A model generated the notes under the pieces. The model made no database searches and had not been told where the DNA came from. It saw only the letters and a list, made by a program, of their open reading frames with translations. A stretch of DNA of 55,758 bases from a virus (lineage: Duplodnaviria > Caudoviricetes): IMG/VR virus record IMGVR_UViG_3300030085_001335, positions 1 through 55,758 of that record, one strand, 5' to 3'. Below, piece by piece: positions 101 to 52,166 of this stretch. The position numbers were made by a program, and so were the translations under genes. Within the stretch, counting starts at the first letter, position 1. The number at the start of each line of letters is the position of its first letter.

Positions 101-3098
101 TCCTGTTTTAGTTGAGGGTAATGCACCTGGTTTTGGAGGTTTATTTGACCCCACTTTTAATTACGATCTATTTGACTTTGGACTAACATATCAGAGTGAG
201 GGTGGTCTTGTACAGGATTCTATAATTAACCCTACATCTGGTAATGGATCAACTCTAAAAAGAAATTTTGATACTGATTCATTCCCAAATGCCGATACAC
301 TTTTCCCTACTGATTTTTCTGTAATTGATTTATCTCCTATTCAAGGATTTAAGTCTGGTGCTTTGCACCCTTTAGGAATTATTTACAAAGACAAGTGGGG
401 TAGATCTTCTTTTGTTAACAAGCTAGGGTCGGCTTACGTTGGATGGTATAACGACCACGATAGACTTAAAGAAGGTGTTTTTAAAAGCCCTGGTGAGACT
501 ATATTAAAAGGAGAATCTTTTGATGGTCCAGCATCTATTAATATAAAATTCCAAAGTGGTCCACCAGCATGGGCTGAAGCATTCCAAATTGTATACCCAG
601 GTAATTCTCTAACGGATGAGTTTATACAGTACTCTGCTGTGGGTGCTTATGTTGCTAGAAAAGGAGACTTTGAAAGTAATGCTGGAAGTACATTTAGAGA
701 GATTGACACTGAGTCAAAAAGAATATATGTTAGCTTTGAGACTTTAGATATATACAGAGATCAGAAGAATACTGTTAGGGATTACTCGTTTACTGTTGGT
801 GATAAGCTTAGAGTTAAGTCCTCAGCACTCCAATTCTCAGCAACAGCTACAGAACCAACAGACGCATACTTTTCTGCAAATGATGGGAGTGTCATTGAGT
901 TTGATGTAGTGGGGGTCGAACTGCTTACCAACGATGTAACCAACCCTATAGCATATAACACAACTAGCCCAGATGATCCTCATGGTCAAGTGGATGCTAT
1001 GGACAAGAGGTTCATGGGTAAGTTCTTAGTCTTAGAGGCTCCTCATATTGCAGGTGGAGCAGTGTCAGAAAATGGTGATCAGATAAAGTATGGGGGGTTT
1101 GATTGGTTCAGCATAGCTTATGAAAATACTATAGCTGGTACAGCTGTTCAAATTCCATATCCAGATGGGACTGTTGTTGAAGAATCATTGAATCATTGGC
1201 AAAATCAAATTATAGTAGAAATATACAATCCTAAAAAATCTACTTCTACTCAGTTCTACTATGAGATTGGTGAGACTGTTATTATAGATAGGAGGGTTAA
1301 CCTTGATGTGGTTGATTATAACACATTTCATGGACCAAACCTTGTGTTAGATACTGGTGATGTACACTACAGACCAGTAGCCTGTAAGACTGCTGATTAT
1401 CGTGATGAGGATGGCGCTGGAAACACTGATGGATCATTTGAGTTTAGGTGGTATGTAAAAGATGACTGGGTATACAAAACAAAACTGCTTGAGGACTTTA
1501 CTCCTTCAGATATTATTTCTGAAAAAATGTGGAGCAAAGGTAGAGCACATGTTGAGTTTAAGAATGCAGCTACAGTAAGAAGATTTAACGGACTGACTTA
1601 CAGTGATGCTTATGCAGAAGATGTAGCTAACCTGTCTCTATCTTCCTTCAATGCAACCCTTGCTAACTTTGGTTCTTTGGAGTCTAAGTATGGAGCCATT
1701 AACTACATATACAACTATGGTAGTACAGGACAGCTTTTAGCACTCCAAGAAAACAAGTTTTCTTTGACAGCTATAGATACCAATATATTACTTGATGTTG
1801 CTGGTAGTGAGAATGTAGCTCTTTCTACTAAAGTTATAAACGCTACAAAATACTTTGTTGGTGACTACGGGTGTGGTGATCATCCAGAGGCAGTTCTGGT
1901 TTACGATAATGATGTATTCTTTGTTGATGTATCAAGAAGGAAAGTACTGAGAATCTCTGGTGGTCAGATGGTTCCTATATCAGACAAAGCTATGTCCTCT
2001 ACTTTCAATGACATCTTTAAAGCTTGGGAGACAAGTTCAAATACTTTATACCCTAGATCAAAAACAAGAAAGATAATAAGTGGTTATGACCCAGATGAAG
2101 ATACATACTATGTAACCTTCTATGCTGAAAGACCATTATTAAACTACGTTCAAGACGCAAACGATATAAACGGAGTAGGTTCTGGTAATGATCAGTTTAC
2201 AGATGTATACTCTGAGATTCAGTTCAATGGGTACACTCTTAGTTATGATGTTGAAGCAGGTTATTGGCAGTCAAAGCACTCTTTCATTCCTACTATATAC
2301 TCTAACCAGAATAATACAATGTACTCATGCAGATATGTTCGTGACAATTCTGATCAAGGACTGACTGACCAACTAACACCACTCTTATTCCACAAGCACG
2401 ATGATCTTTTAGATGGTAATGGTGAACCTATAAATAGAACTGTATTTTACAATCAAGACACAGCAGTGTCTGACTTCACTGTAGTATCTAACCCATCACC
2501 TAGTTCGGTAAAGATTTATGATGCGTTGTCTTACGAGGGTACAAGTCAACCAGATAAAGTGTCTATTAGATCAAGCAACGGAAGTGGTAATGATAACATA
2601 GGTGGTTTGACCTCTTCAGACAATGATATAGGTCAGTATCAATTTGTAGAGAAAGAAGATTCATTCTATATTACTTTACCTAGAGATACTTCTGCTAACA
2701 GCACTTCTCAGTTTAGCGGTTTAGGTGTGTGTACTGACATAGGTGTAAATGATGGTGGTGAGCCCTTCATAACAATTCAAGGATCTCTTATAGGTATACC
2801 TATACCTGCTGGAGCTAGGTTATCATTTTCAAATAATGGGTTTGCTCAACCTATTGGAGCATCAGAGACAACAGTCAAAAGGGTAGAAGGTAACAATATT
2901 TTTGTTTCACTAGCACCATTAGAGGAAATAGTAGATAAAGATATTATACTGCAATACAATTCTTACTTTGATGGTGACTCGATAAGAGGTCATTACGCTA
3001 CAATAAAATCTAATTTTAAAGACAGTGGTCTGTACGAAGTGTACTGCGTCAATGCGCATGTAACGAATTCACCGCTACACCACGCCAGTACTAACTAA
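1..3098 (+). CDS. 3' part of junction-spanning tail nozzle/stabilisation-type protein (full gene 53747..55658 + 1..3098, about 1669 aa)
   Basis: Frame is open from base 3 to 3098 and in frame with the ORF starting at 53747. Motifs FKSGALHPLGIIYKDKWGR, NLSLSSFN, YGAINYI, GDYGCGDHPE and FFVDVSRRKVLR are typical of beta-propeller tail nozzle proteins of Bacteroidetes podoviruses. Confidence 0.75.
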   Translation, partial: TIDVSVEVVDVKINNHEENTDSRFNPRISAVGDPVLVEGNAPGFGGLFDPTFNYDLFDFGLTYQSEGGLVQDSIINPTSGNGSTLKRNFDTDSFPNADTLFPTDFSVIDLSPIQGFKSGALHPLGIIYKDKWGRSSFVNKLGSAYVGWYNDHDRLKEGVFKSPGETILKGESFDGPASINIKFQSGPPAWAEAFQIVYPGNSLTDEFIQYSAVGAYVARKGDFESNAGSTFREIDTESKRIYVSFETLDIYRDQKNTVRDYSFTVGDKLRVKSSALQFSATATEPTDAYFSANDGSVIEFDVVGVELLTNDVTNPIAYNTTSPDDPHGQVDAMDKRFMGKFLVLEAPHIAGGAVSENGDQIKYGGFDWFSIAYENTIAGTAVQIPYPDGTVVEESLNHWQNQIIVEIYNPKKSTSTQFYYEIGETVIIDRRVNLDVVDYNTFHGPNLVLDTGDVHYRPVACKTADYRDEDGAGNTDGSFEFRWYVKDDWVYKTKLLEDFTPSDIISEKMWSKGRAHVEFKNAATVRRFNGLTYSDAYAEDVANLSLSSFNATLANFGSLESKYGAINYIYNYGSTGQLLALQENKFSLTAIDTNILLDVAGSENVALSTKVINATKYFVGDYGCGDHPEAVLVYDNDVFFVDVSRRKVLRISGGQMVPISDKAMSSTFNDIFKAWETSSNTLYPRSKTRKIISGYDPDEDTYYVTFYAERPLLNYVQDANDINGVGSGNDQFTDVYSEIQFNGYTLSYDVEAGYWQSKHSFIPTIYSNQNNTMYSCRYVRDNSDQGLTDQLTPLLFHKHDDLLDGNGEPINRTVFYNQDTAVSDFTVVSNPSPSSVKIYDALSYEGTSQPDKVSIRSSNGSGNDNIGGLTSSDNDIGQYQFVEKEDSFYITLPRDTSANSTSQFSGLGVCTDIGVNDGGEPFITIQGSLIGIPIPAGARLSFSNNGFAQPIGASETTVKRVEGNNIFVSLAPLEEIVDKDIILQYNSYFDGDSIRGHYATIKSNFKDSGLYEVYCVNAHVTNSPLHHASTN

Positions 3099-8300: not shown

Positions 8301-11300
8301 AAATATCTAAAGCTAGATTTTCATCTAGAAAACTTAGATCAATGATTAACGAGAGCATGTCTCAAGAGGAGCAGGATAGGATTTATGAGTCTATAATGAA
8401 GAATGCTGCGAAAGCAAAGAAAGCTCTTGAGTCTAAGACAGAAATATATGACAGGTATAATACGGAACAAAACAAGTTAGATCAAAACTCATTGACGGAT
8501 GAAGAGTTGGCTCTTGTTAATGAGATTGAATCTTTAGATACTGAGATTGACACATTCGATTCTGTACCTAATAGCGATGGTTTTATTGATGTAACACTTG
8601 AGAATGTTAACAGCGTAATAGACAAGCTGTTATCATCGTCAATCATAAAGTCAACTAGGTTTTCAACTGCTCAGCAAATAAAAGATGGTCTTAGGAACGT
8701 AGCTAAGATTGTTAAAGAAGTAAAGTCTGCTGGTGGATCAGTTAGAATATTTACTAATAAAAAAGATTTTGAAAGAGTTACTGGTCAATCTATAGCAAGA
8801 GGTTTGCATACAGAGGGGAAAGGGAAAGACTCTATTGTTAGTTTGTACCTACCTGCCTTAAGAGCAAACACATCTTATCATGAGGCATTTCATGACATAG
8901 TATTGAGAAAGCTGGGGGCTGGTAAGATTCAAGAACTTGCTTTGTCATTAGCTAAAGCTATACCAAATGATCTTATCAGCAAGTATGTGACAGTGATGGA
9001 GCTTACTGAACAGCAACTGATAGACGTAAAAGACTTAAAAGGGTATGACCTCCTTAAGTATATTATCAGTGAAGATAAGGGTAGGGCTGAAGAGTTTCTT
9101 GTTGAGGTTCTTGCAGACATAAGTAATGGTGATTACTCCATCTCATTTAAGAATGGTCTTATACAGAACCTAAAAGAGTTTGTTGCTAAGTTCTTTGGCA
9201 CTACGTTCAAGGACCCAAAAATAAAGGATGTAGTAAGTGCTATTAAAACAGCTACAGAACAGCTAGCTGAAGGTGAGCAAGTAACAGCATTAGATGAGAT
9301 AGGTAGAGAAGGTGAGACAGAAGCTGATTCATCAAAAAGAAACAGAGCTAAGAAACAAGTGATAGGTGAGAATGCTGAACTAGCTGCTTACGAACTAGGT
9401 ATGTTAAATGAGGCACTCGCAATGGAGAAGGAAGGGTATACTTCAAAGGTAATATTCTCTTCTACTGGATGGGAGAAGGGTGCAGACGGAAAGTGGAGAA
9501 TGCTTATCACTGAAGGGATAGAAGATTACTACGATATAGGTTTAGATATACAAGAAGAGCTCCTTAATACTAAAATAGAAACAGGTTTTGATGAAGAAAC
9601 TGGGATGGAGATTGAATTTGGAGGAACGAAAGTAACTAAAAAAGGCGAAGAGGTCATACCAGAGTCTATATTAAATCTATACCCAGCTCTAAAAGATATA
9701 AATATAACATTTCATAAAGACGTACTTCCATTCGATAAGACTGGAAAGGTTAAAGGTCAATATCGCGTAGGTAGCTTTTTACCCAAAAAGGAAATAGACC
9801 CACTCTCCACCCTTATCGATTTAGGATTAGGTAATACCGTTATCGATATTGCTGTTGAAATAGAATATTTTGATTTAAAAAAGGGTGACAACATAGATGA
9901 TTACTATGAGTCAATGGGTTTGTTCCCAGAACATTCATTGACATTAGCTCATGAGGTTCAACACGCTATTCAAGAAATAGAAGGCTTTCAAGGAGGTGCG
10001 ACCATGAGCAGGGGTGAAACAGCACCTATGGTGTACTCATATCAATTGTTTAATGATAAAGGAAGTGATGCGCCTAAGGTAGAAAACATTGTTGTTGAAG
10101 AAAAGCAAAACGAGAATGGAGAAACTGTTTACTCTGTTGTTGACAATAACAATACAGCTGTATACAAAGAATATGGTGAGTTCAACACTAAGGAGGAAGC
10201 AGAGTCAGTAAGAGAAAAAGTAGTTGGTGATTTTAAAACAAAATCTGAACTGCTTACAAAACGATTCCCAGACTTTTCTATTGAATCAATGAAAGATGAA
10301 GAGATTTCTAGACAAGTAAGATATCTCTTTTATAAATCAATAATGGGTGAAGTAGAGGCAAGGTCTGTATCAGAAATGATGGAGATGACGGATCCTCAAC
10401 AGAGAGAATCTATGAGTCCATCAGAACTACTGGAGCTTGTTAATGATGGTGATGCAGTTATAATTCAGAGAGGTGTTTCAAAGAAGCAAACTATAGGTGA
10501 TGAAGGTTCTGATTCTGATTTTGATTTCGTTGATACGTCCATGGATCCTCGTCAAGATTCTAGTAAAAAGCTCAGACAAACTATTGCAACTGCTATAGAG
10601 AAATACCCTTCACTAAGAGAAGAGATGCTGGCTAATCCAGATAACTACATAACTCCTCAGAATCTAGAAGAACTAAGAGCTACTCTTAACGATGAGAATG
10701 TTACCGATGCTGATCTTATCGACATGATGACAGATGATGGTTTGGGTAGATTGCAAAACAGAAATGATGACTTGGCTATACTAGCTCTTAACGAGTTGAT
10801 AAACAGAGCCTTAGATGCAGGGGACATGGAGGCGGTTAGTAAATACGAGACAAACAGGGCTCAGATTGGAACGACTGCTGGTAGGATGCTCAGACATCTT
10901 AGAGCATTGAAGTCAACAACACCTTCTGGTTTATTAAGACAAATAGAATTAGAGATTTCTAAAAGAGGTAATACTATCACTGATAAACAACGTGATAAAT
11001 TGCTAGATAAATTAACTAACGTAGTTAAACTGAATAAAGACTACAAAAAGAAAGCACTGGAGTTAGCTAACATGGATACTGTTAACGACCAGATTGAAAA
11101 GGAATTTAAAGATCTAGAGGAAGAAATATTCAGTGCAGAAAAAGATCTAAACATATATCTTCAGAATATAGTTGAGAAAAGTTGGGGGGAGATATACAGA
11201 ACTCTTCAGCAGGGTAATTTGATTACTTTTATATCTCAAGGAGCTAACATAGGTGGTAACATTGTAAACATATTCGGTGATTTTTGGGTGAGCGCTATAG

Positions 11301-13312
11301 CTTTTCCTATGGAAAAAGTCCTTAATCTATTTGGAGTTGCTTCGAAAGTTCCAAGGAGTCACCAATTTTCTGCAAGAGCATACGGATATGCATTAAAATC
11401 TGGGTGGCAAGGCACAAAGAAAAGTTTTAAAAGCATCTTTACTGGTAGAGGTCTTGACGCTGATTCAGAGTGGAGGATGCAAAGAGGTTTTTACCCTTGG
11501 CAAGCTTTATTGAATGTTTTGTCGGGAAAAGATTTACCTATTGATAATGACGCAAATAGCTTAATAGCTAAAGCAAGTGAGAAGCTAGGGTTTAAAAGAA
11601 AAGGAAAGTCCTCATTAACTCAAAGAGTTAAGTTGGGAGTTATAACTCTTCTTGGACCAAATGCAGAGATGCAGTTTCGAGTTCTTTCATTAGGAGATGT
11701 TCCTTTTAGACAGTACACTGCTGGTCTTGAGCTTTATCGTATGGCTAAAGCTAAAGGATTGAAAGGAGAAGAACTTCAAAAGTTCCTTAAGTACCCAGAT
11801 AAAAAGTATTTAGAGCTTGCACAAAAAGCTGGAAGAAAAATCACGTTCCAGGAAGAAACAGATGTTTCAAGAGCAACAATGAATGCATTCCAAAGCATTC
11901 AGAAAGGTTTAGCTAAAACCATTGACACAATTTTCTTTGGAGCTTTAGATGGTAGTGAATACGCTAAGTCCATTGTGAGAACATTTCAGCCATTCATAAC
12001 TACTCCAGCGAATATGTTTGACGAGACGTTGACCTACATGTCTCCTTATTGGGCTACATTTAGGATAATAAAAGACATAAGAAAAGGTGATGCTGCTAGT
12101 GCGAGTCAAAACTTTGGGAAGATGATGGTTGGTAGTATGGCAGTTCAAGTAGCCATGTTGTTAATCAAAGAGGGATTAATTAATGGACCGATAGAATGGG
12201 ATGAGGAGACTGAAAAGAAAAACTTAACATTTGATCAAATGGGACCTAGCAGTGTAAATGTGAGTGGTCTTAAAAGATTTTTTATGGGAGAAGATCCATC
12301 ATGGAGACCAACTGATGAAAGCAGAAACTATCTTAAGCTGGGTATAATAGGTCAAATAATAGGTGCTGTTGTGAAGTCAGCAGATCCAGATGAACTAAAG
12401 AAAAGAGATTACTCTGACTTCAAGTTCCTTCACCATGCGTTTACTGATGCATTTAGTATGAGATTGCTTTCTGGAGCAGGTAATCTATTAGATCAATCTT
12501 TCTTGCAAGGAATAGATGGTATACTACAAATTTTAACCAGCTCTAATGAAGAAGACTTTGAAAGACAAACAGAAAGACTTATAAACACTGTCGTGAGAGG
12601 AAGTTCTTCTGTAGCACTGCCGAACCAGTGGTCTTCTTTTGCTAAGGCAGAAAGAGATTATATGCCAGATTATAGGTTAGACAAAAACATTTCTTCATCA
12701 GAGAGGTTGCTAAAAAACTTTATCTACGTTATAAAAGACAGAACATTTCAAGGTAGGGATGTACCTTTTAGAATAGACTGGAAAGGAGAAAAGGTTTTGC
12801 AAACTCCAGAAGGGTCTAACAGTATAGCGTATCAAATATTTGATATTACAAAAGCTAGAAGAGGTTCTTCCGATCCAGTGTCTAATGAGATAATGAGGCT
12901 GTATCAAGAGACTGGTGTAGTGACAGAGGCTATGAGCACACCAATGTATGCAAACAACAGAAAGATATTAGTACCAAAAGCAAAAAGGCAAAGAAAATTC
13001 ATTGATAGAAAATACACATATCTTGATGATGAAGAATTCGTAGGGTCTAGAATATATTTTAGTATAGAGCAATGCAATAAATTAATGGAGGTTGCTGGTA
13101 AAGAAAGATATTTAGATCTTGAGTATCTAATGAATTTAGATGTTTATAAAAAAGCAGATAATGAACTCAAATTAGAGTATCTAGATGAAGTAGCAGAAAG
13201 ATACAACGGTCTTTTAGAGACAAGAACAAATCGCAAAGGGTTAAGAGATCATAGCTATTTAGCACTTGACTTCTTACAAGAGGCTTACGAAAAACAAAAA
13301 GCAGATGAATAA
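5384..13312 (+). CDS. Giant ejection / large polyvalent protein with two HExxH zincin-like motifs and an LPD23-like segment
   Basis: 2642 aa; coiled coils; SYHEAFHDI; TGWEKGADGKWR followed by LAHEVQHAIQEIEGFQGG and GEVEAR; helical C-terminal region (PFITTPAN, QSFLQGI) typical of phage ejection proteins. Confidence 0.7.
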   Translation: MNEELRRIIEEYNSKGFSSNKIANLLIYSHGIKDVDKQQLIYIVDEYNAGSLEQEPPQQESDKELKKKGLGQVDGEVYTLLGAESSSQEPSVDSTLSLDPLDLNLESDLTQRADVTSQAPPALEDLQARPQSFEGENIQSLRQERRDLAAEIEAKSKEISNLKQKTPDEFVSDEINKAKLEGLEKELDGLEADKEFSLQKAKIKREEDLRFLEEKVKEEGLRWGDVQSDYLKNVEDFDKIQDLIAEKKSQISEIEDSAERFAANGFGKKENILALQQSKIDELNKEINTLQSKSDDFTERVESGLYIKTRSALKNVAGGRFFGATMTEDEARSLAEEVQLLMNEPSVTVDQVYESMVKDNLVMIDKDAVFQDRLYYDLGVARYDKENLYKVDYRKKDLSDQFKISQEQFSENTDEYLSKVPVELRNFEDAKSKYKSMYNVDLSESDYLDLVSFWNYRDTALNAVENNESIEDSIIKDYKDLIKNSTEENLQSNYFKFLNQNRQEFNQYNKNIDILGYGDKAENIIGLLNKSLKDDVSESISDALFAYRDSDYRRGFDMAAQDKLTASTVVERMFTKFILNTGANVLDYFDMLQDYEKEDDDSPWWNLLYLTPAAGAKAFADLGGGEGIIDFQNISTKSKEIARGIEEYDRINMGLTLTDSQKEISQLIAEGNYGASVKKGVIGVSNIIPQIALVIAAPELAIPLFGVSSAGGMYSEIQDLDHITYGEKVRASVIMGAAEAATEYLFRGQEVVIKEIAKNVLKRKALGKGILDEAAKKAIAKQANTMFKFNPKSKGGKMFLKGLQFQEEGVEELIVDVVDQNITNYLEKKSLNEEHFDLKYNLEDAPNSIVREQILDEIQANRESYSEIGYNIYQTMDSYGLGLIGAGGPLMLTRSLGYIASPGKIKSRIQISKRITELDKLIKEEVDMGERIKLKSEKAELIRKQFSDVAMDQQLLEKMSEADVDELIKLNHEISKARFSSRKLRSMINESMSQEEQDRIYESIMKNAAKAKKALESKTEIYDRYNTEQNKLDQNSLTDEELALVNEIESLDTEIDTFDSVPNSDGFIDVTLENVNSVIDKLLSSSIIKSTRFSTAQQIKDGLRNVAKIVKEVKSAGGSVRIFTNKKDFERVTGQSIARGLHTEGKGKDSIVSLYLPALRANTSYHEAFHDIVLRKLGAGKIQELALSLAKAIPNDLISKYVTVMELTEQQLIDVKDLKGYDLLKYIISEDKGRAEEFLVEVLADISNGDYSISFKNGLIQNLKEFVAKFFGTTFKDPKIKDVVSAIKTATEQLAEGEQVTALDEIGREGETEADSSKRNRAKKQVIGENAELAAYELGMLNEALAMEKEGYTSKVIFSSTGWEKGADGKWRMLITEGIEDYYDIGLDIQEELLNTKIETGFDEETGMEIEFGGTKVTKKGEEVIPESILNLYPALKDINITFHKDVLPFDKTGKVKGQYRVGSFLPKKEIDPLSTLIDLGLGNTVIDIAVEIEYFDLKKGDNIDDYYESMGLFPEHSLTLAHEVQHAIQEIEGFQGGATMSRGETAPMVYSYQLFNDKGSDAPKVENIVVEEKQNENGETVYSVVDNNNTAVYKEYGEFNTKEEAESVREKVVGDFKTKSELLTKRFPDFSIESMKDEEISRQVRYLFYKSIMGEVEARSVSEMMEMTDPQQRESMSPSELLELVNDGDAVIIQRGVSKKQTIGDEGSDSDFDFVDTSMDPRQDSSKKLRQTIATAIEKYPSLREEMLANPDNYITPQNLEELRATLNDENVTDADLIDMMTDDGLGRLQNRNDDLAILALNELINRALDAGDMEAVSKYETNRAQIGTTAGRMLRHLRALKSTTPSGLLRQIELEISKRGNTITDKQRDKLLDKLTNVVKLNKDYKKKALELANMDTVNDQIEKEFKDLEEEIFSAEKDLNIYLQNIVEKSWGEIYRTLQQGNLITFISQGANIGGNIVNIFGDFWVSAIAFPMEKVLNLFGVASKVPRSHQFSARAYGYALKSGWQGTKKSFKSIFTGRGLDADSEWRMQRGFYPWQALLNVLSGKDLPIDNDANSLIAKASEKLGFKRKGKSSLTQRVKLGVITLLGPNAEMQFRVLSLGDVPFRQYTAGLELYRMAKAKGLKGEELQKFLKYPDKKYLELAQKAGRKITFQEETDVSRATMNAFQSIQKGLAKTIDTIFFGALDGSEYAKSIVRTFQPFITTPANMFDETLTYMSPYWATFRIIKDIRKGDAASASQNFGKMMVGSMAVQVAMLLIKEGLINGPIEWDEETEKKNLTFDQMGPSSVNVSGLKRFFMGEDPSWRPTDESRNYLKLGIIGQIIGAVVKSADPDELKKRDYSDFKFLHHAFTDAFSMRLLSGAGNLLDQSFLQGIDGILQILTSSNEEDFERQTERLINTVVRGSSSVALPNQWSSFAKAERDYMPDYRLDKNISSSERLLKNFIYVIKDRTFQGRDVPFRIDWKGEKVLQTPEGSNSIAYQIFDITKARRGSSDPVSNEIMRLYQETGVVTEAMSTPMYANNRKILVPKAKRQRKFIDRKYTYLDDEEFVGSRIYFSIEQCNKLMEVAGKERYLDLEYLMNLDVYKKADNELKLEYLDEVAERYNGLLETRTNRKGLRDHSYLALDFLQEAYEKQKADE

Positions 13313-26708: not shown

Positions 26709-27106
26709 GATTGCTTTGGATTTATGTTTGTTATCCCCATGATTTGTTTTGCTTTATCCCTTCCACGAGGGTTTAATCCATCCTCATCCCAGTATTTCCA
26801 GTTGTCATGAAGGCTCTGCAATGCAGACCAAAATGCTAAAGGATGACCTTTGTACTCTTCTTTCAATAGGTAATCCAACCCTTGTTCATTTCGTTGGTTT
26901 TTAACCATCTTGTCTAACTCATAAACATCACCTATAACGGTTCCAAACTCCTCCAAGGATGGTTCGTTCATACACATACCTACTGCACACATCCTCCCAT
27001 CTTTCGTTAGGTATCTACACTCCTCTCCACCACAGAAGATTTCTGTTGATCTGTTGTTTAACGTGTAGGTATCTGCTACCTGCTTTACAATTTCTTTCGT
27101 TGTCAT
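26705..27106 (-). CDS. Conserved phage hypothetical protein
   Basis: CRYLTKDGRMCAVG...LQSLHD motif. Confidence 0.65.
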   Translation of the reverse strand: MTTKEIVKQVADTYTLNNRSTEIFCGGEECRYLTKDGRMCAVGMCMNEPSLEEFGTVIGDVYELDKMVKNQRNEQGLDYLLKEEYKGHPLAFWSALQSLHDNWKYWDEDGLNPRGRDKAKQIMGITNINPKQS

Positions 27107-27117
27107 ATCTGTTTATT

Positions 27118-27417
27118 TTAATAATCATCATTCATCCTATCACCATACCCATGTGTTTCTAGGGTTGCGTAACGATCCTTTCTGTAAGGGTACTTCTTTG
27201 GATCATTGTAACACTTGATACAGTAGTGCCCCGTAGGTACACCATGTGCATCATACCTCATGTCGCTATCAACCCCACATCCATTGCAAGGTGTGATCTG
27301 CTGTATGTAATGATCGTTGTGGTCAAATGTATATTCCATCATCTCATCTACTTCCCAAGAGGAGTAGGTCTCATACTCAATCTCGTGTGTTTTTTTATTG
27401 ATAATCTGATACATCAT
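27118..27417 (-). CDS. Hypothetical protein with Zn-finger-like CxxC pairs
   Basis: CNGC...CIKC. Confidence 0.6.
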   Translation of the reverse strand: MMYQIINKKTHEIEYETYSSWEVDEMMEYTFDHNDHYIQQITPCNGCGVDSDMRYDAHGVPTGHYCIKCYNDPKKYPYRKDRYATLETHGYGDRMNDDY

Positions 27418-27452
27418 AACTGTTTAATTTTGAAGGGGTTACACCCCATTGG

Positions 27453-27809
27453 TTAATCTATAAATGTAAGTTCAATTTGATCACCGTTGTTAACGGCTTC
27501 CAGTATCTCGTCCATCAGCGCTTCGTACTGTGTGTATACTTCTTCGAAGTTCTCTAGTAGCTTCTCGCCACTACCTTTGATATCAAAGTATTTCTTGACG
27601 TCAGATACTTTCCAGTGTCTATTGGCTTTCATCTTGAACTCTACCCACATACCTAGGTCACGCCTTGAACACATTAGGTTCCAGTTTGCCTTGTTTGCCT
27701 TTGTTGGGTTTCTAAAGTAGTCGTAAAGGTCGACCCATAAAGGGGTTGTGTAGTTTGGGTTGTACACCTTTGGGTACTTACATAGGTTGATCTGTGTGAT
27801 TGTAGACAT
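27453..27809 (-). CDS. Hypothetical early protein
   Basis: Start moved to ATG 27809, downstream of promoter 27849. Confidence 0.6.
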   Translation of the reverse strand: MSTITQINLCKYPKVYNPNYTTPLWVDLYDYFRNPTKANKANWNLMCSRRDLGMWVEFKMKANRHWKVSDVKKYFDIKGSGEKLLENFEEVYTQYEALMDEILEAVNNGDQIELTFID

Positions 27810-27848
27810 AATGTTTTGATTTTGAGTTTTGCCGTTTGATTGACAGTG

Positions 27849-27883
27849 CAAATATAAGGGATAATGTTGGTAACTTCCAAATT
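27849..27883 (-). promoter_or_regulatory. Early promoter (-33 TTTGG at 27877-27881, -7 TATATTTG at 27849-27856)
   Basis: Both Bacteroidetes elements present, with the same spacing as promoters 30582 and 31328; upstream AAAAATAAA. Confidence 0.8.
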
Positions 27884-27905
27884 TATTTTTTTATAGTACG
27901 TAGTA

Positions 27906-28166
27906 CTATACTACTGTGAGTTCAGTGCCATCACATCGAACAGACTTGATAGTATCTGCGTTTATCATACGGTACGCATTCTTCTGAATATCATATACAG
28001 GTAGTAGACCTTTGCTCCTAGCATCGTACTTCATACCTATGCCTTTTGTGTACTTATGTACTCCCATACGTGCCGTCATTACTCTTTCCTCACCGTTCTT
28101 TTTAATGAACGTTACTGAGAAGATTTTACCACCTCTTACGAGGTTCTCGATTGTTTTTACTTTCAT
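27906..28166 (-). CDS. Sm-like/SH3 beta-barrel (WYL_2-like) protein
   Basis: FSVTFIKKNGEERVMTAR...VYDIQKNAYRMIN. Confidence 0.65.
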   Translation of the reverse strand: MKVKTIENLVRGGKIFSVTFIKKNGEERVMTARMGVHKYTKGIGMKYDARSKGLLPVYDIQKNAYRMINADTIKSVRCDGTELTVV

Positions 28167-28182
28167 AATTTTTAATTTATAA

Positions 28183-28773
28183 TTAAACCCATTGATTTCT
28201 AATAGTTACCCAAACAATAGCTTGGAACTGGTACGCCTTCACGCCCATCTCCTTAGCTACCTTCACGGTTTCTTCTTGAATGATACGGTACTGCTTAGGT
28301 GTTACAGATTCTCTACAAGTCCTCGACTTCTTAGATGAGGTTTGACAAGCTCTTAAGTGCCACTTGTCGATTGTAACAAAGTTACTATCGTTCTCACCTA
28401 CGTTCCTAGCGAATGCATACGTCTTAGGTGATGAGGTCAGTATCTTACGATCACCTTTTGCAATAGCGAAAGCCTTGGCTTTGTTTGCATCATAGGTACA
28501 TACCTTTACATCTTGCATAGGTACGTTATCACGTACTGCCATGAGTACTTGGACTGCATCGAACTTGTTTCTTTCCCATCTGTTATTGGGAGAAAGAGCC
28601 GAGATAACGCCTGCGGCTACTTCACCACGTACACCGTAGTCAGTTGATAATTGCTTTGCAAAATCCATTGCATCTTTGTACCAAACCAAACCTTGTTTGA
28701 TCTCGTCTTTAGTCGCTCTATTGTACCAAATACGTAGGTTAGAGCGATACTTTTTAAGCTCTTTTTTAGTCAT
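28183..28773 (-). CDS. Conserved phage protein, possible HhH-glycosylase-like fold
   Basis: GLVWY, AGVISALSPNNRWERN, PKTYAF, VTIDKWH, FQAIVW. Confidence 0.5.
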   Translation of the reverse strand: MTKKELKKYRSNLRIWYNRATKDEIKQGLVWYKDAMDFAKQLSTDYGVRGEVAAGVISALSPNNRWERNKFDAVQVLMAVRDNVPMQDVKVCTYDANKAKAFAIAKGDRKILTSSPKTYAFARNVGENDSNFVTIDKWHLRACQTSSKKSRTCRESVTPKQYRIIQEETVKVAKEMGVKAYQFQAIVWVTIRNQWV

Positions 28774-28794
28774 AACGTTTTGATTCTGAGTTTA

Positions 28795-29073
28795 TTAATT
28801 TTTTAGGAAAGAATCCCAGTCTACTCCAAGCGCACCATCGTGCTTAGATACGTGAAGGTCGTACAGTATTATAGCTACGTCTTGAACGTTACTGTCTTCG
28901 ATGGTTTTTATCTTATCTAAGATCGCTTGCTTCTTTGTTTCTTCTCTGTTATATACAGAGCTATCGCTTGAATACTGGTAGTAAAAGTCAAGTTCTCCTA
29001 GGTCTTGGTTTAGCTTTGCTAAGAAATCCATGTCCTCTGTAGAGGGTTTCCAGTTTTCGTCTCTTGTACTCAT
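28795..29073 (-). CDS. Hypothetical early protein
   Basis: DFYYQYSSD motif; preceded by the conserved AAAACATACATACCT leader. Confidence 0.65.
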   Translation of the reverse strand: MSTRDENWKPSTEDMDFLAKLNQDLGELDFYYQYSSDSSVYNREETKKQAILDKIKTIEDSNVQDVAIILYDLHVSKHDGALGVDWDSFLKN

Positions 29074-29101
29074 AGGTATGTATGTTTTAATTTTTGAATT
29101 T

Positions 29102-29146
29102 TGGAATCGGCAAGGGAATCGAACCCCTCATGCACCATGACCGATT
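29102..29146 (-). ncRNA. Minimal tRNA-like element (acceptor stem + T-arm + CCA; no anticodon arm)
   Basis: AAUCGGU pairs with GCCGAUU (7 bp); internal CAUG-GUG-CAUG hairpin; T-arm AGGGG-UUCGAUU-CCCUU; 3' CCA. Confidence 0.7.
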
Positions 29147-29156
29147 GATTGACTGC

Positions 29157-29501
29157 TTATAGCGAATCAAAGATTTTTGCCGCCCTTTGCCTAGACTCAT
29201 CCTTTGCATCCCATTCAGCATCTCTAAGGTCATACGTCCTCTTGATATACCATCTACGTAACGTATCTACGTCCTCTGTTGAGACGATATGCTCTTTAAA
29301 TGCATACCCACCATCTATGTACATTACTGCCGACAATATGATCGGACAAGAGGACTCTCTTGTAATTTCTGAAAACATACAATGCAGTTCTAGACGTACG
29401 TCATGACCGTCTACATTACCGCTTAGGCTCATGTTATCCAACGCTTTCTTGTTGAATTCAGTCCATTCTACCTTGTTTAATTTGTTAATTAAGTATTCCA
29501 T
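29157..29501 (-). CDS. Hypothetical early protein flanked by the hammerhead and the tRNA-like element
   Basis: 114-aa ORF with A-rich leader. Confidence 0.65.
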   Translation of the reverse strand: MEYLINKLNKVEWTEFNKKALDNMSLSGNVDGHDVRLELHCMFSEITRESSCPIILSAVMYIDGGYAFKEHIVSTEDVDTLRRWYIKRTYDLRDAEWDAKDESRQRAAKIFDSL

Positions 29502-29520
29502 AATATTTGATTTTGAATGT

Positions 29521-29586
29521 TAGTTTGTCTCATCAGTACAAAGAGAACTACTCTTTGTAGACAACCCCTAAGGGTTGTTTCGACTA
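29521..29586 (-). ncRNA. Type II hammerhead ribozyme
   Basis: GUC-GAAA-CAACCC-UUAG-GGGUUG-UC^-UACAAAGAG-UAGUU-CUCUUUGUA-CUGAUGA-GAC-A-AACUA: all core nucleotides and stems I/II/III present; GUC cleavage site between 29560 and 29559; loop I UAGUU complementary to the 3' tail AACUA. Confidence 0.93.
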
Positions 29587-29943
29587 TTCCATATCTAACC
29601 ATACAGGGTATGGGTTGCCACTATTCGAAGAGATTTTGTATACACAATAGCTACCGCTATTGCTTATGTATACCTTCCTACCTTCGTGAGTATGTGGTGT
29701 GGACTTACCTACCCAAACTGCGTAGTCGTTTCCAGTTCTCGGAGACTTACATTTTATGTAAGTGCTACCCTTGTTAGTCTCAAAGAGACTGAAAGTCGTA
29801 CCATCAATGTTAATTGATCTGCCAGTTGATAGACCGCTTTCGACATTGAATCCACCTCCCTTGGAGGTTTTAGATACGAATGTCTGAGTGAAGGCAGTAA
29901 TAGATATCGCTACCAAAGCCAAAGTGAAAATTGCTTTTTTCAT
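29584..29943 (-). CDS. Exported early protein (signal peptide)
   Basis: MKKAIFTLALVAISITAFT-Q signal-peptide pattern; its stop codon runs into hammerhead stem II. Confidence 0.65.
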   Translation of the reverse strand: MKKAIFTLALVAISITAFTQTFVSKTSKGGGFNVESGLSTGRSINIDGTTFSLFETNKGSTYIKCKSPRTGNDYAVWVGKSTPHTHEGRKVYISNSGSYCVYKISSNSGNPYPVWLDME

Positions 29944-29968
29944 GTGTATGTATTTATGTATGTATGTA

Positions 29969-30349
29969 TTAATAATCTAAGTAGTTTCTCTTGTAGTCTA
30001 AAAAGTAGTCGTTGTTGAAATCATACCTTTCACCTACGTATGAAGGATTGAAGACAAGAAAGCCTTTTTTACTTCTCCTATTTGTCTTTACTGCTATTGC
30101 ATCCTCTCCGAGGATTACACATACCTCCCTAAGCGTCTCCCTAAGGTCTCTCAAGTCCTCGAAAGATAGCGAAGCTATTAACGTACGTTCGAGACCCCAA
30201 TCACCGCCTTTGCACCTACGTTCCTCGAAATCAGTTACTGCGATGTCTGAAAATTCGGCTTCACACATTAGTGTTCTTAATGCTTTCGGCATCGAAGTCC
30301 TTTGTATACCTATGTTCACTTGTGCCGCTATGTTTGTTTCTTTTACCAT
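29969..30349 (-). CDS. Hypothetical early protein
   Basis: Start moved to ATG 30349, after the ATACATACATACGTC leader. Confidence 0.65.
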   Translation of the reverse strand: MVKETNIAAQVNIGIQRTSMPKALRTLMCEAEFSDIAVTDFEERRCKGGDWGLERTLIASLSFEDLRDLRETLREVCVILGEDAIAVKTNRRSKKGFLVFNPSYVGERYDFNNDYFLDYKRNYLDY

Positions 30350-30399
30350 GACGTATGTATGTATTTGATTTTGAATTTTTGATTGGTAATTGAACTGCC

Positions 30400-30531
30400 T
30401 TATGCAAGCTCTTGTTCTACGTACATCTGCTCTTCGCAGGTAAGTACGTCCCATTCTAGGGTGTTGATTGCCATTTCGAAGTCTAGCCCATCGAAGATGG
30501 ATGCAAGTTGGTTTAGCTTTTGCTCGTTCAT
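30400..30531 (-). CDS. Small acidic early protein (43 aa)
   Basis: ATG 30531 after AAAACATACATACCT, downstream of promoter 30582. Confidence 0.6.
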   Translation of the reverse strand: MNEQKLNQLASIFDGLDFEMAINTLEWDVLTCEEQMYVEQELA

Positions 30532-30581
30532 AGGTATGTATGTTTTATTTTTGAAGTTGTCGGAATATCGAATCGACCCCA

Positions 30582-30616
30582 CAAAGATACGGCAATCGAT
30601 TCGACAATTCCAAATT
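30582..30616 (-). promoter_or_regulatory. Early promoter (-33 TTTGG at 30610-30614, -7 TATCTTTG at 30582-30589)
   Basis: Conserved spacing; upstream AAAAATAAA shared with promoter 27849. Confidence 0.8.
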
Positions 30617-30659
30617 TATTTTTGTTAATGTTTTTTTACCCTTTAGGGTAGATTGCCAA

Positions 30660-31274
30660 TTAAAACGGGCAATCGCTTGTGTCGATGTCTGCATCTGAGT
30701 ACATAGGTGCACCATCAGCGAGTGCATCCTGCTCAGCTACGTACCTAGCGTGTCTAGCTGCTTCAATTGGGCATTGTCCGATCTCTAAATCAAACGGCAG
30801 GACTGCTTGCTTATTTGAGACTTTCTTAGCCTTCGGCTCATCCGTAGGTAGGTATGTCTGAGCAAGCCCTCTCGAAGCCCTTTGGGCTTGAACTTCTAGC
30901 TTTTGATTGCTAGTCAGCTTCGCTGGAGGGTTAGAGACTTTCTTTCTTCGGCTAGAAGTCTTTGACTTCTTTTTCGAAGTCTTCGACTTCGTTTTTGAAT
31001 CAACCTTTGGTTGATCAACGCCTACCTTCGCTAGAGCTTCGGCAACCGCTTTCTCAATCATAGATTGAACATCTGGAGTTTCAACCTTTTTTTGTTGCTT
31101 CGCAACATGCTTCGAAGTTTTCAGCCCTTTCACGAAGGTATGTAGCGCCTTGACCGCATCAAGGGCTTCGTTCTTAGCTTCCTCGCTTGGAATAAAGCAA
31201 GCTTTATTTATAGACTTCTGAGCATCTTTGATGAGGCTTGTTCTAGCCTCGTTGTCAAAACCGTAGGTTTTCAT
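30660..31274 (-). CDS. First early protein (Lys-rich middle, acidic tail ending CPF)
   Basis: Start moved to ATG 31274, after AAAAACATACATACCT; 204 aa. Confidence 0.7.
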   Translation of the reverse strand: MKTYGFDNEARTSLIKDAQKSINKACFIPSEEAKNEALDAVKALHTFVKGLKTSKHVAKQQKKVETPDVQSMIEKAVAEALAKVGVDQPKVDSKTKSKTSKKKSKTSSRRKKVSNPPAKLTSNQKLEVQAQRASRGLAQTYLPTDEPKAKKVSNKQAVLPFDLEIGQCPIEAARHARYVAEQDALADGAPMYSDADIDTSDCPF

Positions 31275-31327
31275 AGGTATGTATGTTTTTATTTTGAGCG
31301 TCAATCCGTTTGTCGAACTGAACACCG

Positions 31328-31362
31328 CAAATATATGGCAGCTTCAAAACAACCTCCAAATT
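31328..31362 (-). promoter_or_regulatory. First early promoter (-33 TTTGG at 31356-31360, -7 TATATTTG at 31328-31335)
   Basis: Both elements with conserved spacing; heads the minus-strand arm. Confidence 0.8.
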
Positions 31363-32003
31363 TTTGAGGGACTATTTTCGTGCGCGATTTCTCCTGCGCA
31401 TTATGCGCGTGGAAACAGGCGTAAAATCGATTTTCTCAGAGCCTCGTATGCGCTGACCTACGTAGGTGCGAGAAGAGCCCTCAGATTTGATGCATTGGAT
31501 CCAGTGTAGCCTCATGCGTAGGTATGTGTGTAGGTGTACGTATGTATGTGGGGGTGTGTCCCTTGCTTCCGTAGGGCTGAGGACCGAGCCGACTTTCCCC
31601 TTTCCGCTTGTGCAGGCTTTCGTACGTACGTACATACGTGGCTTTTCTTACTTCTAGTGCTTGGTTAATATACGATGGTTAAATAGCTGAAAGTCAAACA
31701 GTTATGCTACACAAAAAGCTCAAATGTGTGCGCAAGACGTAGGTACGTGATACCCACGGGGTGTGTGTTATGCGTTTGCTATGTGTAACGCGGGTGATAT
31801 GTAATACGTATTATCCCCACAATCTACATTACTCATCATTTTTTTCAACCCTACCCCTTTTAACATGCATAAAAAAGCTGTTCATTTTTCAACATATCCA
31901 ATCATCATATGACACAAAAGCAGTATAAGGGACTGCATACTAAGCAGTTACACTATTTACTTAAAGTAATGCTTTAACAGTTGACTATATCAAAAAAAAG
32001 CTG

Positions 32004-32015: not shown

Positions 32016-32153
32016 ACAAGCGTTGCTTTAACAGCGGCATCGTAGAAAGCTCTGCACGCATTTAAGGTGTTGAGGAAAGAACAAGTAAGATAGATGACTC
32101 TATCATCTTATATAGCTGTGGAGGGCACAAGAACTGTGCTCTTTTTTTTTTTT
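32016..32153 (+). ncRNA. Candidate small structured RNA (about 135 nt)
   Basis: Bounded by promoter and terminator; hairpins GUUGCU/AGCGGC, GUAGA/UCUGC and UAAGAU/AUCUUA. Confidence 0.45.
32123..32153 (+). terminator. Intrinsic terminator
   Basis: GGGCACA-AGAAC-UGUGCUC followed by 12 T. Confidence 0.8.
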
Positions 32154-32188: not shown

Positions 32189-32285
32189 GAACCTCTACCT
32201 ATATATGTTCTGTATTTCGTACCCTCTCTCTATATATGTTATGCATTCTGTACCTTCTCTCTATATATGTGGTGCTTTTCGTACC
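32189..32285. repeat. Three imperfect 30-31-bp tandem repeats
   Basis: GAACCTCTACCTATATATGTTCTGTATTTC / GTACCCTCTCTCTATATATGTTATGCATTCT / GTACCTTCTCTCTATATATGTGGTGCTTTTC / GTACC. Confidence 0.8.
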
Positions 32286-32317
32286 TAATGTCTAAACAGA
32301 GGCAGTCTTATAATTAA

Positions 32318-32332: not shown

Positions 32333-33487
32333 ATGAGACCGATCAAGCCAACTGCTTTCATGACTCCTAATAAAGGACCAGATGATCCGCCTAAAAAAGA
32401 TTTTCTATCTAAAGCTACTGAGAAAAGAGATATAGATTACGCACCTTCTATTCAGCTTCAACGACTAGACTCAATAGACTCTAACGTTAGATCAAAAAAC
32501 CCTTACTTTGGTAACAAAGAAGAGGTTTACGTTCCATTTGATTTTTATTCCGACTGGCTTAATTCTGAGATGTATAAACGAATGATGGACGGAAAGGAAT
32601 CTATTCATGATAAAATGCGCCCCATACCATCTTCAATTTATAAAGACGATGAAGAATCAACCCAGAATATTATTCAGAAGTTTGGATATAAACCTGGCTT
32701 AGACGGGAAGGTATCAATTACAGATGCTAGAAGACAAAATTTAGAAAATACTGAAGTAGAAAACTATGCTCTTTCAGATTTTAAGAACATGGTTAGTAAG
32801 GGGGAATACATAAGCGGAGGTGAATATAAAAGAGATTCTGATGGGAATATTATTAGCAGCTACCCAAAAGTAAAATTGCAAAATCCAAAATATAAAACTA
32901 GTACAGGTCAGTCTATTAGTTTTGATGATTACTTGTCTACGTTGGTTCATGAGCTTTCTCATGCATCAGATGTTGATATACTTAATTATGATGGTCCAAA
33001 CAGTACCTGGGATGCTATTTATTATGAGGCAAGAAAGGAAAGAAGAGGAGAGCCAGTTCCAGAAGGTACTTTTGGCTTAGAAGAAAGAACTGGGGGATAC
33101 AGGAAGGCGTTAATACCTAGTAAAGATGTAGATTTAATAAATTCTTTTGTTGAAAAAAACAGAGAAAAAAACCTTAAAGGACATTATCCAGAATATACAC
33201 GTAACCGAGACTTGAACTGGAGGTATTACACTGACCCTACAGAGGTTAGGGCTAGAGTAAACTCTCAGAGATACGATTTATTTAAGAAGGGAATTTTTAA
33301 TCCATTCTCACAAAAAATGACTCAAAAAAAGCTGGATGAAATAAGAAAGGATACAATTAAATCTGGTTCAAAAAATATGAAAGACCTATTTAACTTCTTT
33401 TCTGACGATCAGATTATAAAGATGTTTAACTCTATAGCTATGGAAGAAACAGGTAAATCAAAAGGTAGGATCCTTAATTTTGCTTAA
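32333..33487 (+). CDS. HExxH zincin-like protein
   Basis: TLVHELSHAS and downstream YYTDPTEVRAR. Confidence 0.55.
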   Translation: MRPIKPTAFMTPNKGPDDPPKKDFLSKATEKRDIDYAPSIQLQRLDSIDSNVRSKNPYFGNKEEVYVPFDFYSDWLNSEMYKRMMDGKESIHDKMRPIPSSIYKDDEESTQNIIQKFGYKPGLDGKVSITDARRQNLENTEVENYALSDFKNMVSKGEYISGGEYKRDSDGNIISSYPKVKLQNPKYKTSTGQSISFDDYLSTLVHELSHASDVDILNYDGPNSTWDAIYYEARKERRGEPVPEGTFGLEERTGGYRKALIPSKDVDLINSFVEKNREKNLKGHYPEYTRNRDLNWRYYTDPTEVRARVNSQRYDLFKKGIFNPFSQKMTQKKLDEIRKDTIKSGSKNMKDLFNFFSDDQIIKMFNSIAMEETGKSKGRILNFA

Positions 33488-52121: not shown

Positions 52122-52157
52122 GAAAGGAGCTTCCAAATAAGGAGGCTCTTTTCTTTT
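52122..52157 (+). terminator. Intrinsic terminator
   Basis: GAAAGGAGCUUCC-AAAUAA-GGAGGCUCUUUUC then UUUU. Confidence 0.75.
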
Positions 52158-52158
52158 G

Positions 52159-52166
52159 TATATTTG
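52159..52166 (+). promoter_or_regulatory. -7 promoter box TATATTTG
   Basis: 4 nt before ATG 52171. Confidence 0.65.

What the first reader, a model, noticed from the sequence alone, without database searches (positions are those of the whole stretch)
29521..29586. Intact type II hammerhead ribozyme with loop-tail pseudoknot, fused to a stop codon
Seen on the minus (sense) strand: core GAAA and CUGAUGA; stem III CAACCC/GGGUUG; GUC cleavage triplet; 9-bp stem I; 3-bp stem II GUC/GAC whose first G is the last base of the upstream UAG stop; loop I UAGUU perfectly complementary to the 3' tail AACUA. Established: such loop-tail pseudoknots activate short-stem type II hammerheads. Inference: likely active in vivo, and a terminating ribosome covering stem II could couple cleavage to translation of the upstream gene.
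Basis: partly seen in the sequence, partly recalled or inferred. Interest (0 to 1): 0.85.

Follow-up and report, generated by a model that had tools for sequence, protein, structure and literature searches.

The report
Type II hammerhead ribozyme in phage operon
A genuine self-cutting hammerhead RNA sits between two small early genes of an uncultivated Bacteroidota-type phage, starting on the upstream gene's stop codon; it is a clean new example of a known kind of ribozyme, and the stop-codon overlap is a common habit of such phage ribozymes rather than a special feature of this one.

Summary
Rfam's type II hammerhead model (RF02276) hits window 29585-29519 (-) at 47.9 bits (cut-off 37, E 8.7e-7).

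- **Conservation:** three related phage contigs keep the ribozyme behind the homologous 119-aa gene, with compensatory changes in stems I and III and in the loop I/3'-tail pseudoknot.
- **Covariation:** across 12 copies of the same architecture, 99.3% of cells pair and 3 of 5 pseudoknot pairs covary.
- **Known class:** the class and its pseudoknot were described and tested by Perreault et al. 2011.
- **Stop-codon fusion is not special:** in 135 phage copies, 53 have the upstream stop at exactly this position and 100 have it within 6 nt. This scan had already noted the habit on other DNA.
- **Translation coupling:** geometrically possible but untested.
- **Local detail:** the gene, ribozyme and leader behave as a unit. 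More distant homologues carry a type I hammerhead-like motif or a terminator-like hairpin in the same slot.

Most likely function: self-cleavage of the early polycistronic RNA at 29560|29559.

The parts
29584..29943 (-). Upstream gene, 119 aa: signal-peptide-like N-terminus followed by a small all-beta domain; family unknown. Its UAG stop is 29586-29584.
   Evidence: ORF list. No Pfam family; weak phrog_16207 match. 8 homologues at 56-95% identity. AlphaFold model pLDDT 81.3, nine strands. No fold match at E<=0.001 in the PDB or BFVD libraries.
29519..29586 (-). Type II hammerhead ribozyme, whole element including the stop codon and the 3' tail.
   Evidence: RF02276 at 47.9 bits, gathering score 37; fold; coordinates checked.
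29582..29584 (-). Stem II 5' strand GUC. Its G is the last base of the UAG stop.
   Evidence: pair 3-65 of alignment A3 shows GC in 11 rows and AU in 1.
29578..29581 (-). Core G12 A13 A14 plus A15.1.
29561..29578 (-). Stem III hairpin (7 bp, loop UUAG). It would be the 3'-terminal hairpin of the upstream cleavage product.
   Evidence: -10.0 kcal/mol alone; 4 of 6 counted pairs covary.
29559..29560 (-). Cleavage site: C17 is 29560, and the scissile bond lies between 29560 and 29559.
   Evidence: Position in the Rfam alignment (GUC followed by stem I). Cleavage itself is not tested.
29537..29559 (-). Stem I hairpin (9 bp) with 5-nt loop I UAGUU (29550-29546). It would be the 5'-terminal hairpin of the downstream product.
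   Evidence: -9.4 kcal/mol alone; 8 of 9 pairs covary (note that stem I pairing was a criterion for choosing those rows).
29530..29536 (-). Core CUGAUGA.
29527..29529 (-). Stem II 3' strand GAC.
29521..29525 (-). 3' tail AACUA, which forms the pseudoknot with loop I.
   Evidence: Compensatory changes: UGGCU/AGCCA in L002 and UUCAGC/GCUGAA in L003 and L004. 3 of 5 pairs covary in A3.
29502..29520 (-). 19-nt A/U-rich leader between the ribozyme and the next start codon. It is partly conserved in relatives although their downstream genes differ.
   Evidence: Alignment A1.
29157..29501 (-). Downstream gene, 114 aa, no known family. It is not conserved behind the ribozyme in relatives.

Best explanation
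This is a genuine, probably active type II hammerhead ribozyme (Rfam RF02276 class). It lies in the early, minus-strand operon of a roughly 56-kb Bacteroidota-type podophage.

Mechanism, step by step:
- When RNA polymerase has transcribed through position 29519, stems I and III, the 3-bp stem II and the 5-bp loop I/tail pseudoknot can form.
- The RNA then cuts itself between C29560 and U29559 (inferred from family membership).
- One product is an upstream message ending 24 nt past the UAG stop, in the stem III hairpin, with a 2',3'-cyclic phosphate.
- The other is a downstream message starting with a 5'-OH and the stem I hairpin, 58 nt before the AUG of the next gene.
- The likely effect is to uncouple the fate of the first early genes from the downstream early genes without stopping transcription. 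That means separate stability or translation for the two RNAs (inferred; the direction of the effect is unknown).

The one-base overlap with the stop codon is the usual tight packing of this ribozyme class in phages, not a device special to this locus. The ribozyme belongs with the upstream 119-aa gene as its 3' end.
For: Identity:
- RF02276 at 47.9 bits against a cut-off of 37, E 8.7e-7.
- All core positions are canonical.
- The MFE fold gives the three stems.

Selection for structure:
- The homologous gene in L002, L003 and L004 is followed by the same ribozyme (43.1, 36.3 and 36.3 bits).
- Loop and tail change together in these relatives.
- In 12 copies with a 9-bp stem I and 5-nt loop, 99.3% of 276 cells pair. 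16 of 23 pairs change on both sides, and 0 of 500 shuffles reach the covariation score. Sliding the 3' partners drops pairing to 33-46%.

Family-wide pseudoknot: 113 of 137 copies have at least 4 Watson-Crick pairs, against 26% with permuted tails.

Experimental precedent (Perreault 2011, passages read):
- Pseudoknot mutants lose 20- to over 100-fold in rate, and compensatory mutants recover.
- Prophage hammerheads cleave within about 2-kb polycistronic transcripts in vitro and in E. coli.

Operon context:
- All ORFs from 31325 down to 14013 are on the minus strand.
- No terminator-like site lies on the minus strand between about 31900 and 26000.

Cassette link:
- Neighbouring proteins are 91-99% identical between the window and L002.
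- The 119-aa gene is 82% identical and lies on the other side of the DUF7178 gene.
- The ribozyme follows it in both.
Against: - No cleavage assay exists for this copy, and no RNA data: no RNA run was listed.
- Two of the three relatives score just under Rfam's cut-off (36.3 against 37).
- All five loop I bases would have to pair with the tail, which may be strained. Only the three inner pairs are shown to covary.
- The rows were chosen by a core-motif pattern and by my own stem I parse, so the stem I numbers are partly circular. Stem III and the pseudoknot were not used in the choice.
- What cleavage does to gene expression has not been established for any phage hammerhead (review PMC6765202, passage read).
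- Four of eight loci with a homologue of the upstream gene lack a type II hammerhead, so the ribozyme is not obligatory for that gene.
Confidence: 0.72

Rival explanations
1. Translation-gated ribozyme. The stop codon lies in stem II, so a ribosome finishing the 119-aa gene holds the 5' strand of stem II, the GAAA core and part of stem III in its mRNA channel. The ribozyme can then fold only when the site is free of ribosomes, and the cleavage rate would report how heavily the upstream gene is translated.
For: - Geometry: the stop is 29586-29584 and the core begins at 29583. A ribosome covers roughly a dozen bases 3' of the A site (recalled knowledge, from no call).
- The arrangement is strongly non-random across the class. 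The upstream stop lies within 17 nt of the ribozyme in 119 of 135 copies and at the identical offset in 53.
- TAG is a minority stop in this phage (9 of 66 ORFs), yet it is used here and in L002.
Against: - Nothing here measures translation or cleavage.
- UAG at this offset is the deepest position at which a stop codon can overlap the fixed sequence AG-UCGAAAC. A pile-up at -3 to -6 is therefore also what pure compaction predicts.
- The 3' side is packed just as tightly: the next start codon lies mostly 18-38 nt after the core, which leaves room only for the tail and a leader.
- 16 of 135 copies have no nearby stop.
- The class cleaves fast in vitro without ribosomes (over 1.2 per min), so much cleavage may precede the first ribosome.
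- My rough control on ordinary gene spacing was too noisy to decide.
Confidence: 0.15
2. Boundary element of a mobile single-gene cassette. The ribozyme serves as a non-terminating '3' end maker' for the 119-aa gene. It is interchangeable with other 3'-end elements and travels with the gene when the cassette is shuffled among phages. This is compatible with the best explanation and adds an evolutionary claim.
For: - Window, L002 and L003 share the gene, the ribozyme and a short leader, but have three unrelated downstream genes and different upstream neighbours.
- The cassette lies on opposite sides of the DUF7178 gene in the window and in L002.
- In homologues at 46-52% identity the same slot holds something else. 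L128 and L129 have a type I hammerhead-like motif with a complete core 3 nt after the stop. L126 has a 13-bp hairpin followed by six U (z -3.8).
Against: - Only 8 loci were examined, forming about 4 lineages.
- The type I-like motif fails all Rfam thresholds (best 20 bits against 56.3).
- L127 was scanned but its sequence was not read.
- No promoter or repeat marks the cassette's 5' edge.
- Phage early regions are mosaic at most gene boundaries anyway, and I have no baseline for that.
Confidence: 0.3
3. Inactive relic or chance match with no role.
For: No direct activity data. There is a single copy in the window, unlike the arrays seen in other phage contigs.
Against: - E 8.7e-7.
- Canonical core.
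- Retained at 57-82% protein identity of the neighbouring gene, with several compensatory double changes, including two in the pseudoknot between the window and L002.
Confidence: 0.04

Closest known systems
Type II hammerhead ribozymes (Rfam RF02276; Perreault et al. 2011, PMC3088659; passages read)
   Same: - Core sequence.
- Open stem II, with stems I and III closed by loops.
- Short stem II (3 bp).
- Pseudoknot between loop I and the bases just 3' of stem II.
- Phage intergenic location.
- Scores above the family's gathering cut-off.
   Different: Nothing structural. This copy has a 9-bp stem I whose 5-nt loop is entirely complementary to the tail, a sub-architecture shared by 15 of 137 surveyed copies. 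Its host lineage is a Bacteroidota-type podophage, and its leader has no Shine-Dalgarno-like sequence.
Clustered hammerheads flanking single genes in prophages (for example the triple arrangement around ardA in Agrobacterium tumefaciens; Perreault 2011)
   Same: A ribozyme placed between co-directional small accessory genes of a phage transcript, presumed to process a polycistronic RNA.
   Different: Here there is one ribozyme, not a cluster. Other contigs from my survey do show clusters, for example 5 copies in L049 and 4 in L026.
glmS ribozyme and engineered 3'-UTR twister ribozymes (as summarised in the review PMC6765202, passage read)
   Same: Self-cleavage within an mRNA that changes the fate of the message.
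   Different: glmS is ligand-dependent and sits in a 5' UTR. No ligand or regulatory input is evident here.

Membership tests
Hammerhead ribozyme, type II (RF02276) | Covariance-model score at or above Rfam's gathering cut-off | tested here: met
   47.9 bits against 37, full-length match to model positions 1-66.
Hammerhead ribozyme, type II (RF02276) | Conserved catalytic core: CUGAUGA, GAAA, the A15.1-U16.1 pair, and C17 at the cleavage site | tested here: met
   All present and canonical at 29536-29530, 29581-29578, 29578/29561 and 29560.
Hammerhead ribozyme, type II (RF02276) | Three-way junction with stems I and III closed by loops and stem II open | tested here: met
   The MFE structure shows exactly this. 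99.3% of cells pair across 12 copies.
Hammerhead ribozyme, type II (RF02276) | Tertiary contact: pseudoknot of 4 or more pairs between loop I and the 3' tail (present in most members, not obligatory) | tested here: met
   5 complementary bases. Compensatory changes in L002, L003 and L004. 3 of 5 pairs covary. Family-wide, 113 of 137 copies against 26% for permuted controls.
Hammerhead ribozyme, type II (RF02276) | Site-specific, Mg2+-dependent self-cleavage | not testable with these tools
   Needs a bench assay. No RNA run was listed for this DNA.
Clustered prophage hammerheads (Perreault 2011) | Several hammerheads close together flanking genes | tested here: not met
   Only one hammerhead hit in the 55.8-kb window, at gathering and at E<=1. 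The close relative L002 has a second, sub-threshold type I candidate (28.5 bits against 34).
   Only the geometry and the family-wide stop proximity could be shown.

The most novel reading that the evidence does not exclude
The stop codon built into stem II is a selected device. Terminating ribosomes keep the ribozyme unfolded, so the phage cuts its early message only when, or where, the upstream gene is not being translated. Phage type II hammerheads would then be translation sensors rather than constitutive cutters. The same slot can be filled by a type I hammerhead or a terminator in relatives, which makes these elements interchangeable '3'-end modules' of mobile single-gene cassettes.
Probability: 0.15. 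Interest if true: 0.6.

Novelty: new member of a known kind. Interest (0 to 1): 0.25.

Why it matters
On its own this adds one well-supported example of a ribozyme class known since 2011, found by the standard Rfam model, so it changes little.

Its modest value is as a clean test case for what phage hammerheads do, a question the 2019 review still calls open:
- It is a single ribozyme in a simple operon.
- The stop codon overlaps stem II by exactly one base.
- Natural relatives carry a different pseudoknot sequence, a type I-like motif or a terminator-like hairpin at the same slot.

The stop-codon habit is family-wide. The words 'stop codon' do not occur in the main text of Perreault 2011 or of the 2019 review. 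This scan has already recorded the habit several times on other phage DNA, so it is not new to the scan.

Tried and rejected
- **DNA similarity:** a search of 27000-32000 against the phage collection gave no match.
- **Downstream gene:** a search for relatives of the 114-aa gene in viral contigs found none, so it gives no comparative information.
- **RNA evidence:** no RNA holder was listed for 27500-31500.
- **Cargo protein:** no Pfam family and no fold match at E<=0.001 in the PDB or BFVD libraries. The best viral row is an uncharacterised Cellulophaga phage phi14:2 protein at E 3.8e-3. Its function stays unknown.
- **Conserved A before stem II:** I considered that the A at Rfam model position 1 merely reflects stop codons. 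This is rejected as a full explanation, because A is also the commonest base there when no stop overlaps it (36 of 59).
- **Compaction control:** the spacing of ordinary co-directional ORFs in the same loci (800 gaps, median 51 nt, 32% at 5 nt or less) was too noisy to separate compaction from function. My crude ORF calling misses small genes.
- **Leader word:** ATTCAAAA, shared by the ribozyme's leader and the next intergenic leader, is not enriched in the window (10 matches against 6.0 +/- 2.5 expected).
- **Promoter scan:** sigma-70-type promoter-like sites are not above shuffles (11 against 16.6), and that scan does not cover Bacteroidota promoters.
- **Literature:** searches were 'type II hammerhead' + pseudoknot (3 papers), 'hammerhead ribozyme' + 'stop codon' + bacteriophage (74 papers, 15 listed by title and abstract start, none on this subject), and hammerhead + self-cleaving + phage + polycistronic (17 papers, 15 listed).
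- **Survey limits:**
  - Of 143 pattern hits, 8 were dropped as exact duplicates or for having under 200 nt upstream.
  - For one search I dropped 3 of 15 rows (L086, L105, L107), whose 8-bp stem I put gaps into the alignment.

Full report
**What the window is.** The window is a complete virus record of 55,758 bases, estimated 92% complete. It encodes a large terminase, a portal protein, ribonucleotide reductase subunits, a primase/helicase and an exonuclease. Its terminase is 43-48% identical to those of Flavobacterium and Cellulophaga podophages. Genes from about 14.0 to 31.3 kb lie on the minus strand, and the rest lie on the plus strand. No tRNA gene is called.

**The observation.**
- UAG stop at 29586-29584.
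- Stem II GUC/GAC.
- GAAA.
- C17 at 29560.
- A 9-bp stem I with loop UAGUU.
- CUGAUGA.
- One spacer A, then AACUA, the perfect complement of loop I.

Rfam's Hammerhead_II model matches 29585-29519 end to end at 47.9 bits (gathering score 37, E 8.7e-7). It is the only ribozyme hit in the window, also at E<=1. The minimum-free-energy fold of the 89-nt intergenic RNA gives the three stems (z -2.96).

**Context.**
- The ribozyme and a 19-nt A/U-rich leader fill the whole 82-nt gap between a 119-aa ORF (29584..29943) and a 114-aa ORF (29157..29501), both on the minus strand.
- The upstream protein has a signal-peptide-like start and a confidently predicted all-beta body (pLDDT 81.3).
- It has no Pfam family and no significant fold match.
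- No terminator-like site lies on the minus strand between about 31.9 and 26.0 kb. The ribozyme is therefore most likely transcribed inside a long early RNA, about 1.8 kb from the divergent intergenic region at 31.3-32.3 kb. This is an inference.

**Relatives.** Three viral contigs encode homologues of the upstream gene at 82%, 59% and 58% identity.
- Each has a type II hammerhead directly after that gene, at 43.1, 36.3 and 36.3 bits. The last two are just below the cut-off of 37.
- The pseudoknot changes on both sides. The window has UAGUU/AACUA, L002 has UGGCU/AGCCA, and L003 and L004 have UUCAGC/GCUGAA.
- Stems I and III also carry compensatory changes.
- L002 keeps the UAG overlap. L003 and L004 end in UAA one base further upstream, with only a 2-bp stem II.

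**Wider survey.** These gave 143 hits.
- *Architecture (137 unique copies):* stem II is 3 bp in 104. Loop I and the tail share at least 4 Watson-Crick pairs in 113 (82%), against 26% when tails are permuted, and at least 5 pairs in 64 (47%) against 8%.
- *Covariation:* twelve copies with the window's architecture (9-bp stem I, 5-nt loop) were aligned. Three further copies with an 8-bp stem I were left out. 99.3% of 276 cells pair, and 16 of 23 pairs change on both sides, including 3 of 5 pseudoknot pairs. No shuffle out of 500 reaches the covariation score, and sliding the partners drops pairing to 33-46%.
- *Caveat:* stem I pairing helped to choose these rows. Stem III and the pseudoknot did not.

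**What is already known.** Perreault et al. 2011 described natural type II hammerheads. They reported the loop I/3'-tail pseudoknot in most of them, and losses of 20-fold to over 100-fold in rate when it is shortened or mutated, with rescue by compensatory mutation. They also described hammerheads flanking genes in prophages that cleave within polycistronic transcripts (passages read).

**The stop-codon fusion.** I took 135 unique copies with at least 200 nt upstream and asked where the nearest upstream frame of at least 50 open codons ends. Offsets are given relative to the U of UCGAAAC.

| Stop codon starts at | Copies (of 135) |
|---|---|
| -3, as in the window (45 TAG, 8 TAA) | 53 |
| -4 | 23 |
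| -5 | 12 |
| -6 | 12 |
| -7 to -17 | 19 |
| further upstream (-20 to -84) | 6 |
| inside stem III (+10 to +12) | 4 |
| no such frame | 6 |

- When copies are grouped by similarity of the upstream 197 nt, 41 of 115 groups are flush and 41 are within 6 nt.
- The fusion is therefore the modal state of the class and not a property of this locus.
- Earlier notes of this scan had reached the same conclusion on other phage DNA. I treated those as leads and repeated the survey independently.
- The words 'stop codon' do not occur in the main text of Perreault 2011 or of the 2019 review. Supplements could not be read.

**Compaction or function?**
- UAG at -3 is the deepest overlap that the fixed bases allow, so compaction alone predicts a pile-up there.
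- The 3' side is just as tight, with the next start codon mostly 18-38 nt after the core.
- TAG is a minority stop in this phage (9 of 66 ORFs). This shows that the ribozyme's conserved AG dictates the stop choice, and both readings can accommodate that.
- My baseline of ordinary gene spacing was too noisy to help.
- A terminating ribosome would certainly occlude the 5' third of the ribozyme (geometry; the ribosome footprint is recalled knowledge). Whether this matters kinetically is untested.
- After cleavage, the upstream RNA still has 24 nt beyond the stop. That should allow normal termination (inference).

**A local point of some interest.**
- Neighbouring proteins are 91-99% identical between the window and L002. 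The 119-aa gene is only 82% identical and sits on the opposite side of the DUF7178 gene.
- The genes downstream of the ribozyme are unrelated in the window, L002 and L003. Similarity runs through the ribozyme and the short leader up to the start codon.
- Four more distant homologues of the gene (46-52% identity) have no type II hammerhead.
- In L128 and L129 the gene is followed, 3 nt after its UAA, by a motif with the full type I order and core: CUGAUGA, hairpin, CGAAAC, hairpin, GUC, with a 6-bp closing stem. It fails all Rfam thresholds (best 20 bits against 56.3).
- L126 has a 13-bp hairpin plus six U in that slot (z -3.8). L127 was scanned but its sequence was not read.
- This suggests that the slot behind this gene is reserved for an RNA 3'-end element, of which the hammerhead is one option. 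With about four lineages, this is a hypothesis only.

**Verdict.** The identification as an intact type II hammerhead with an activating pseudoknot is supported. The translation-coupling idea is neither supported nor excluded. The element is a new member of a known kind, found by the standard model, with a family-wide rather than special relation to the stop codon. Interest is low to moderate.

Noticed in passing
window 29102-29146 (-), in the 83-nt gap between ORFs 29157..29501 and 28795..29073: A 7-bp stem (AAUCGGU/GCCGAUU) encloses a sequence matching the canonical tRNA T-arm (GGGGUUCGAUUCCCU) and is followed by CCA. ARAGORN calls no tRNA. Rfam gives only tiny T-arm matches to mascRNA and tmRNA. 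The fold is no better than shuffles (z -0.31). If real, the 114-aa gene would be bracketed by two different RNA-processing signals.
   Followed up: partly
L002 1172-1221 (+): The close relative carries a second, type I hammerhead candidate (28.5 bits against a cut-off of 34). Its 5' stem strand contains the UAA stop of a 111-aa ORF (842..1177). The window has no counterpart.
   Followed up: partly
L129 2856-2909 (+) and the identical stretch in L128 about 212-265 (+): A type I hammerhead-like motif with a complete core lies behind a 46-52% homologue of the upstream gene. The multi-locus cmscan missed it. In a focused scan it scored only 20 bits, against RAGATH-1-hammerhead.
   Followed up: partly
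L126 2865-2900 (+): At the same slot behind the homologous gene there is a 13-bp hairpin followed by six U, like an intrinsic terminator.
   Followed up: partly
L049 2186-4162 and L026 9127-11316: Other viral contigs hold arrays of 5 and 4 pattern-matching type II hammerheads within about 2 kb, the clustered arrangement known from prophages.
   Followed up: no
window 32194-32294 (+): Three direct repeats of a 39-nt unit, spaced 31 nt apart (74-82% identity to the first copy), lie just upstream of the first plus-strand gene at 32333, inside the roughly 1-kb region between the divergent gene blocks. A strong terminator-like hairpin with a long T-run is at 32120-32144 (+).
   Followed up: no
window 52123-52159 (+): Sub-threshold match to the ctRNA_p42d family (31.7 bits against 50, E 0.0039) in the short gap between two late ORFs. 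It may be just a hairpin.
   Followed up: no
window 5384-13312 (+): A 2642-aa ORF whose only Pfam hit is LPD23, a 'large polyvalent protein' domain.
   Followed up: no
window 28183-29943 compared with L002 1907-3360: The gene order of the early region differs between two phages whose shared proteins are 91-99% identical. The DUF7178 gene lies downstream of the ribozyme cassette in the window and upstream of it in L002.
   Followed up: partly
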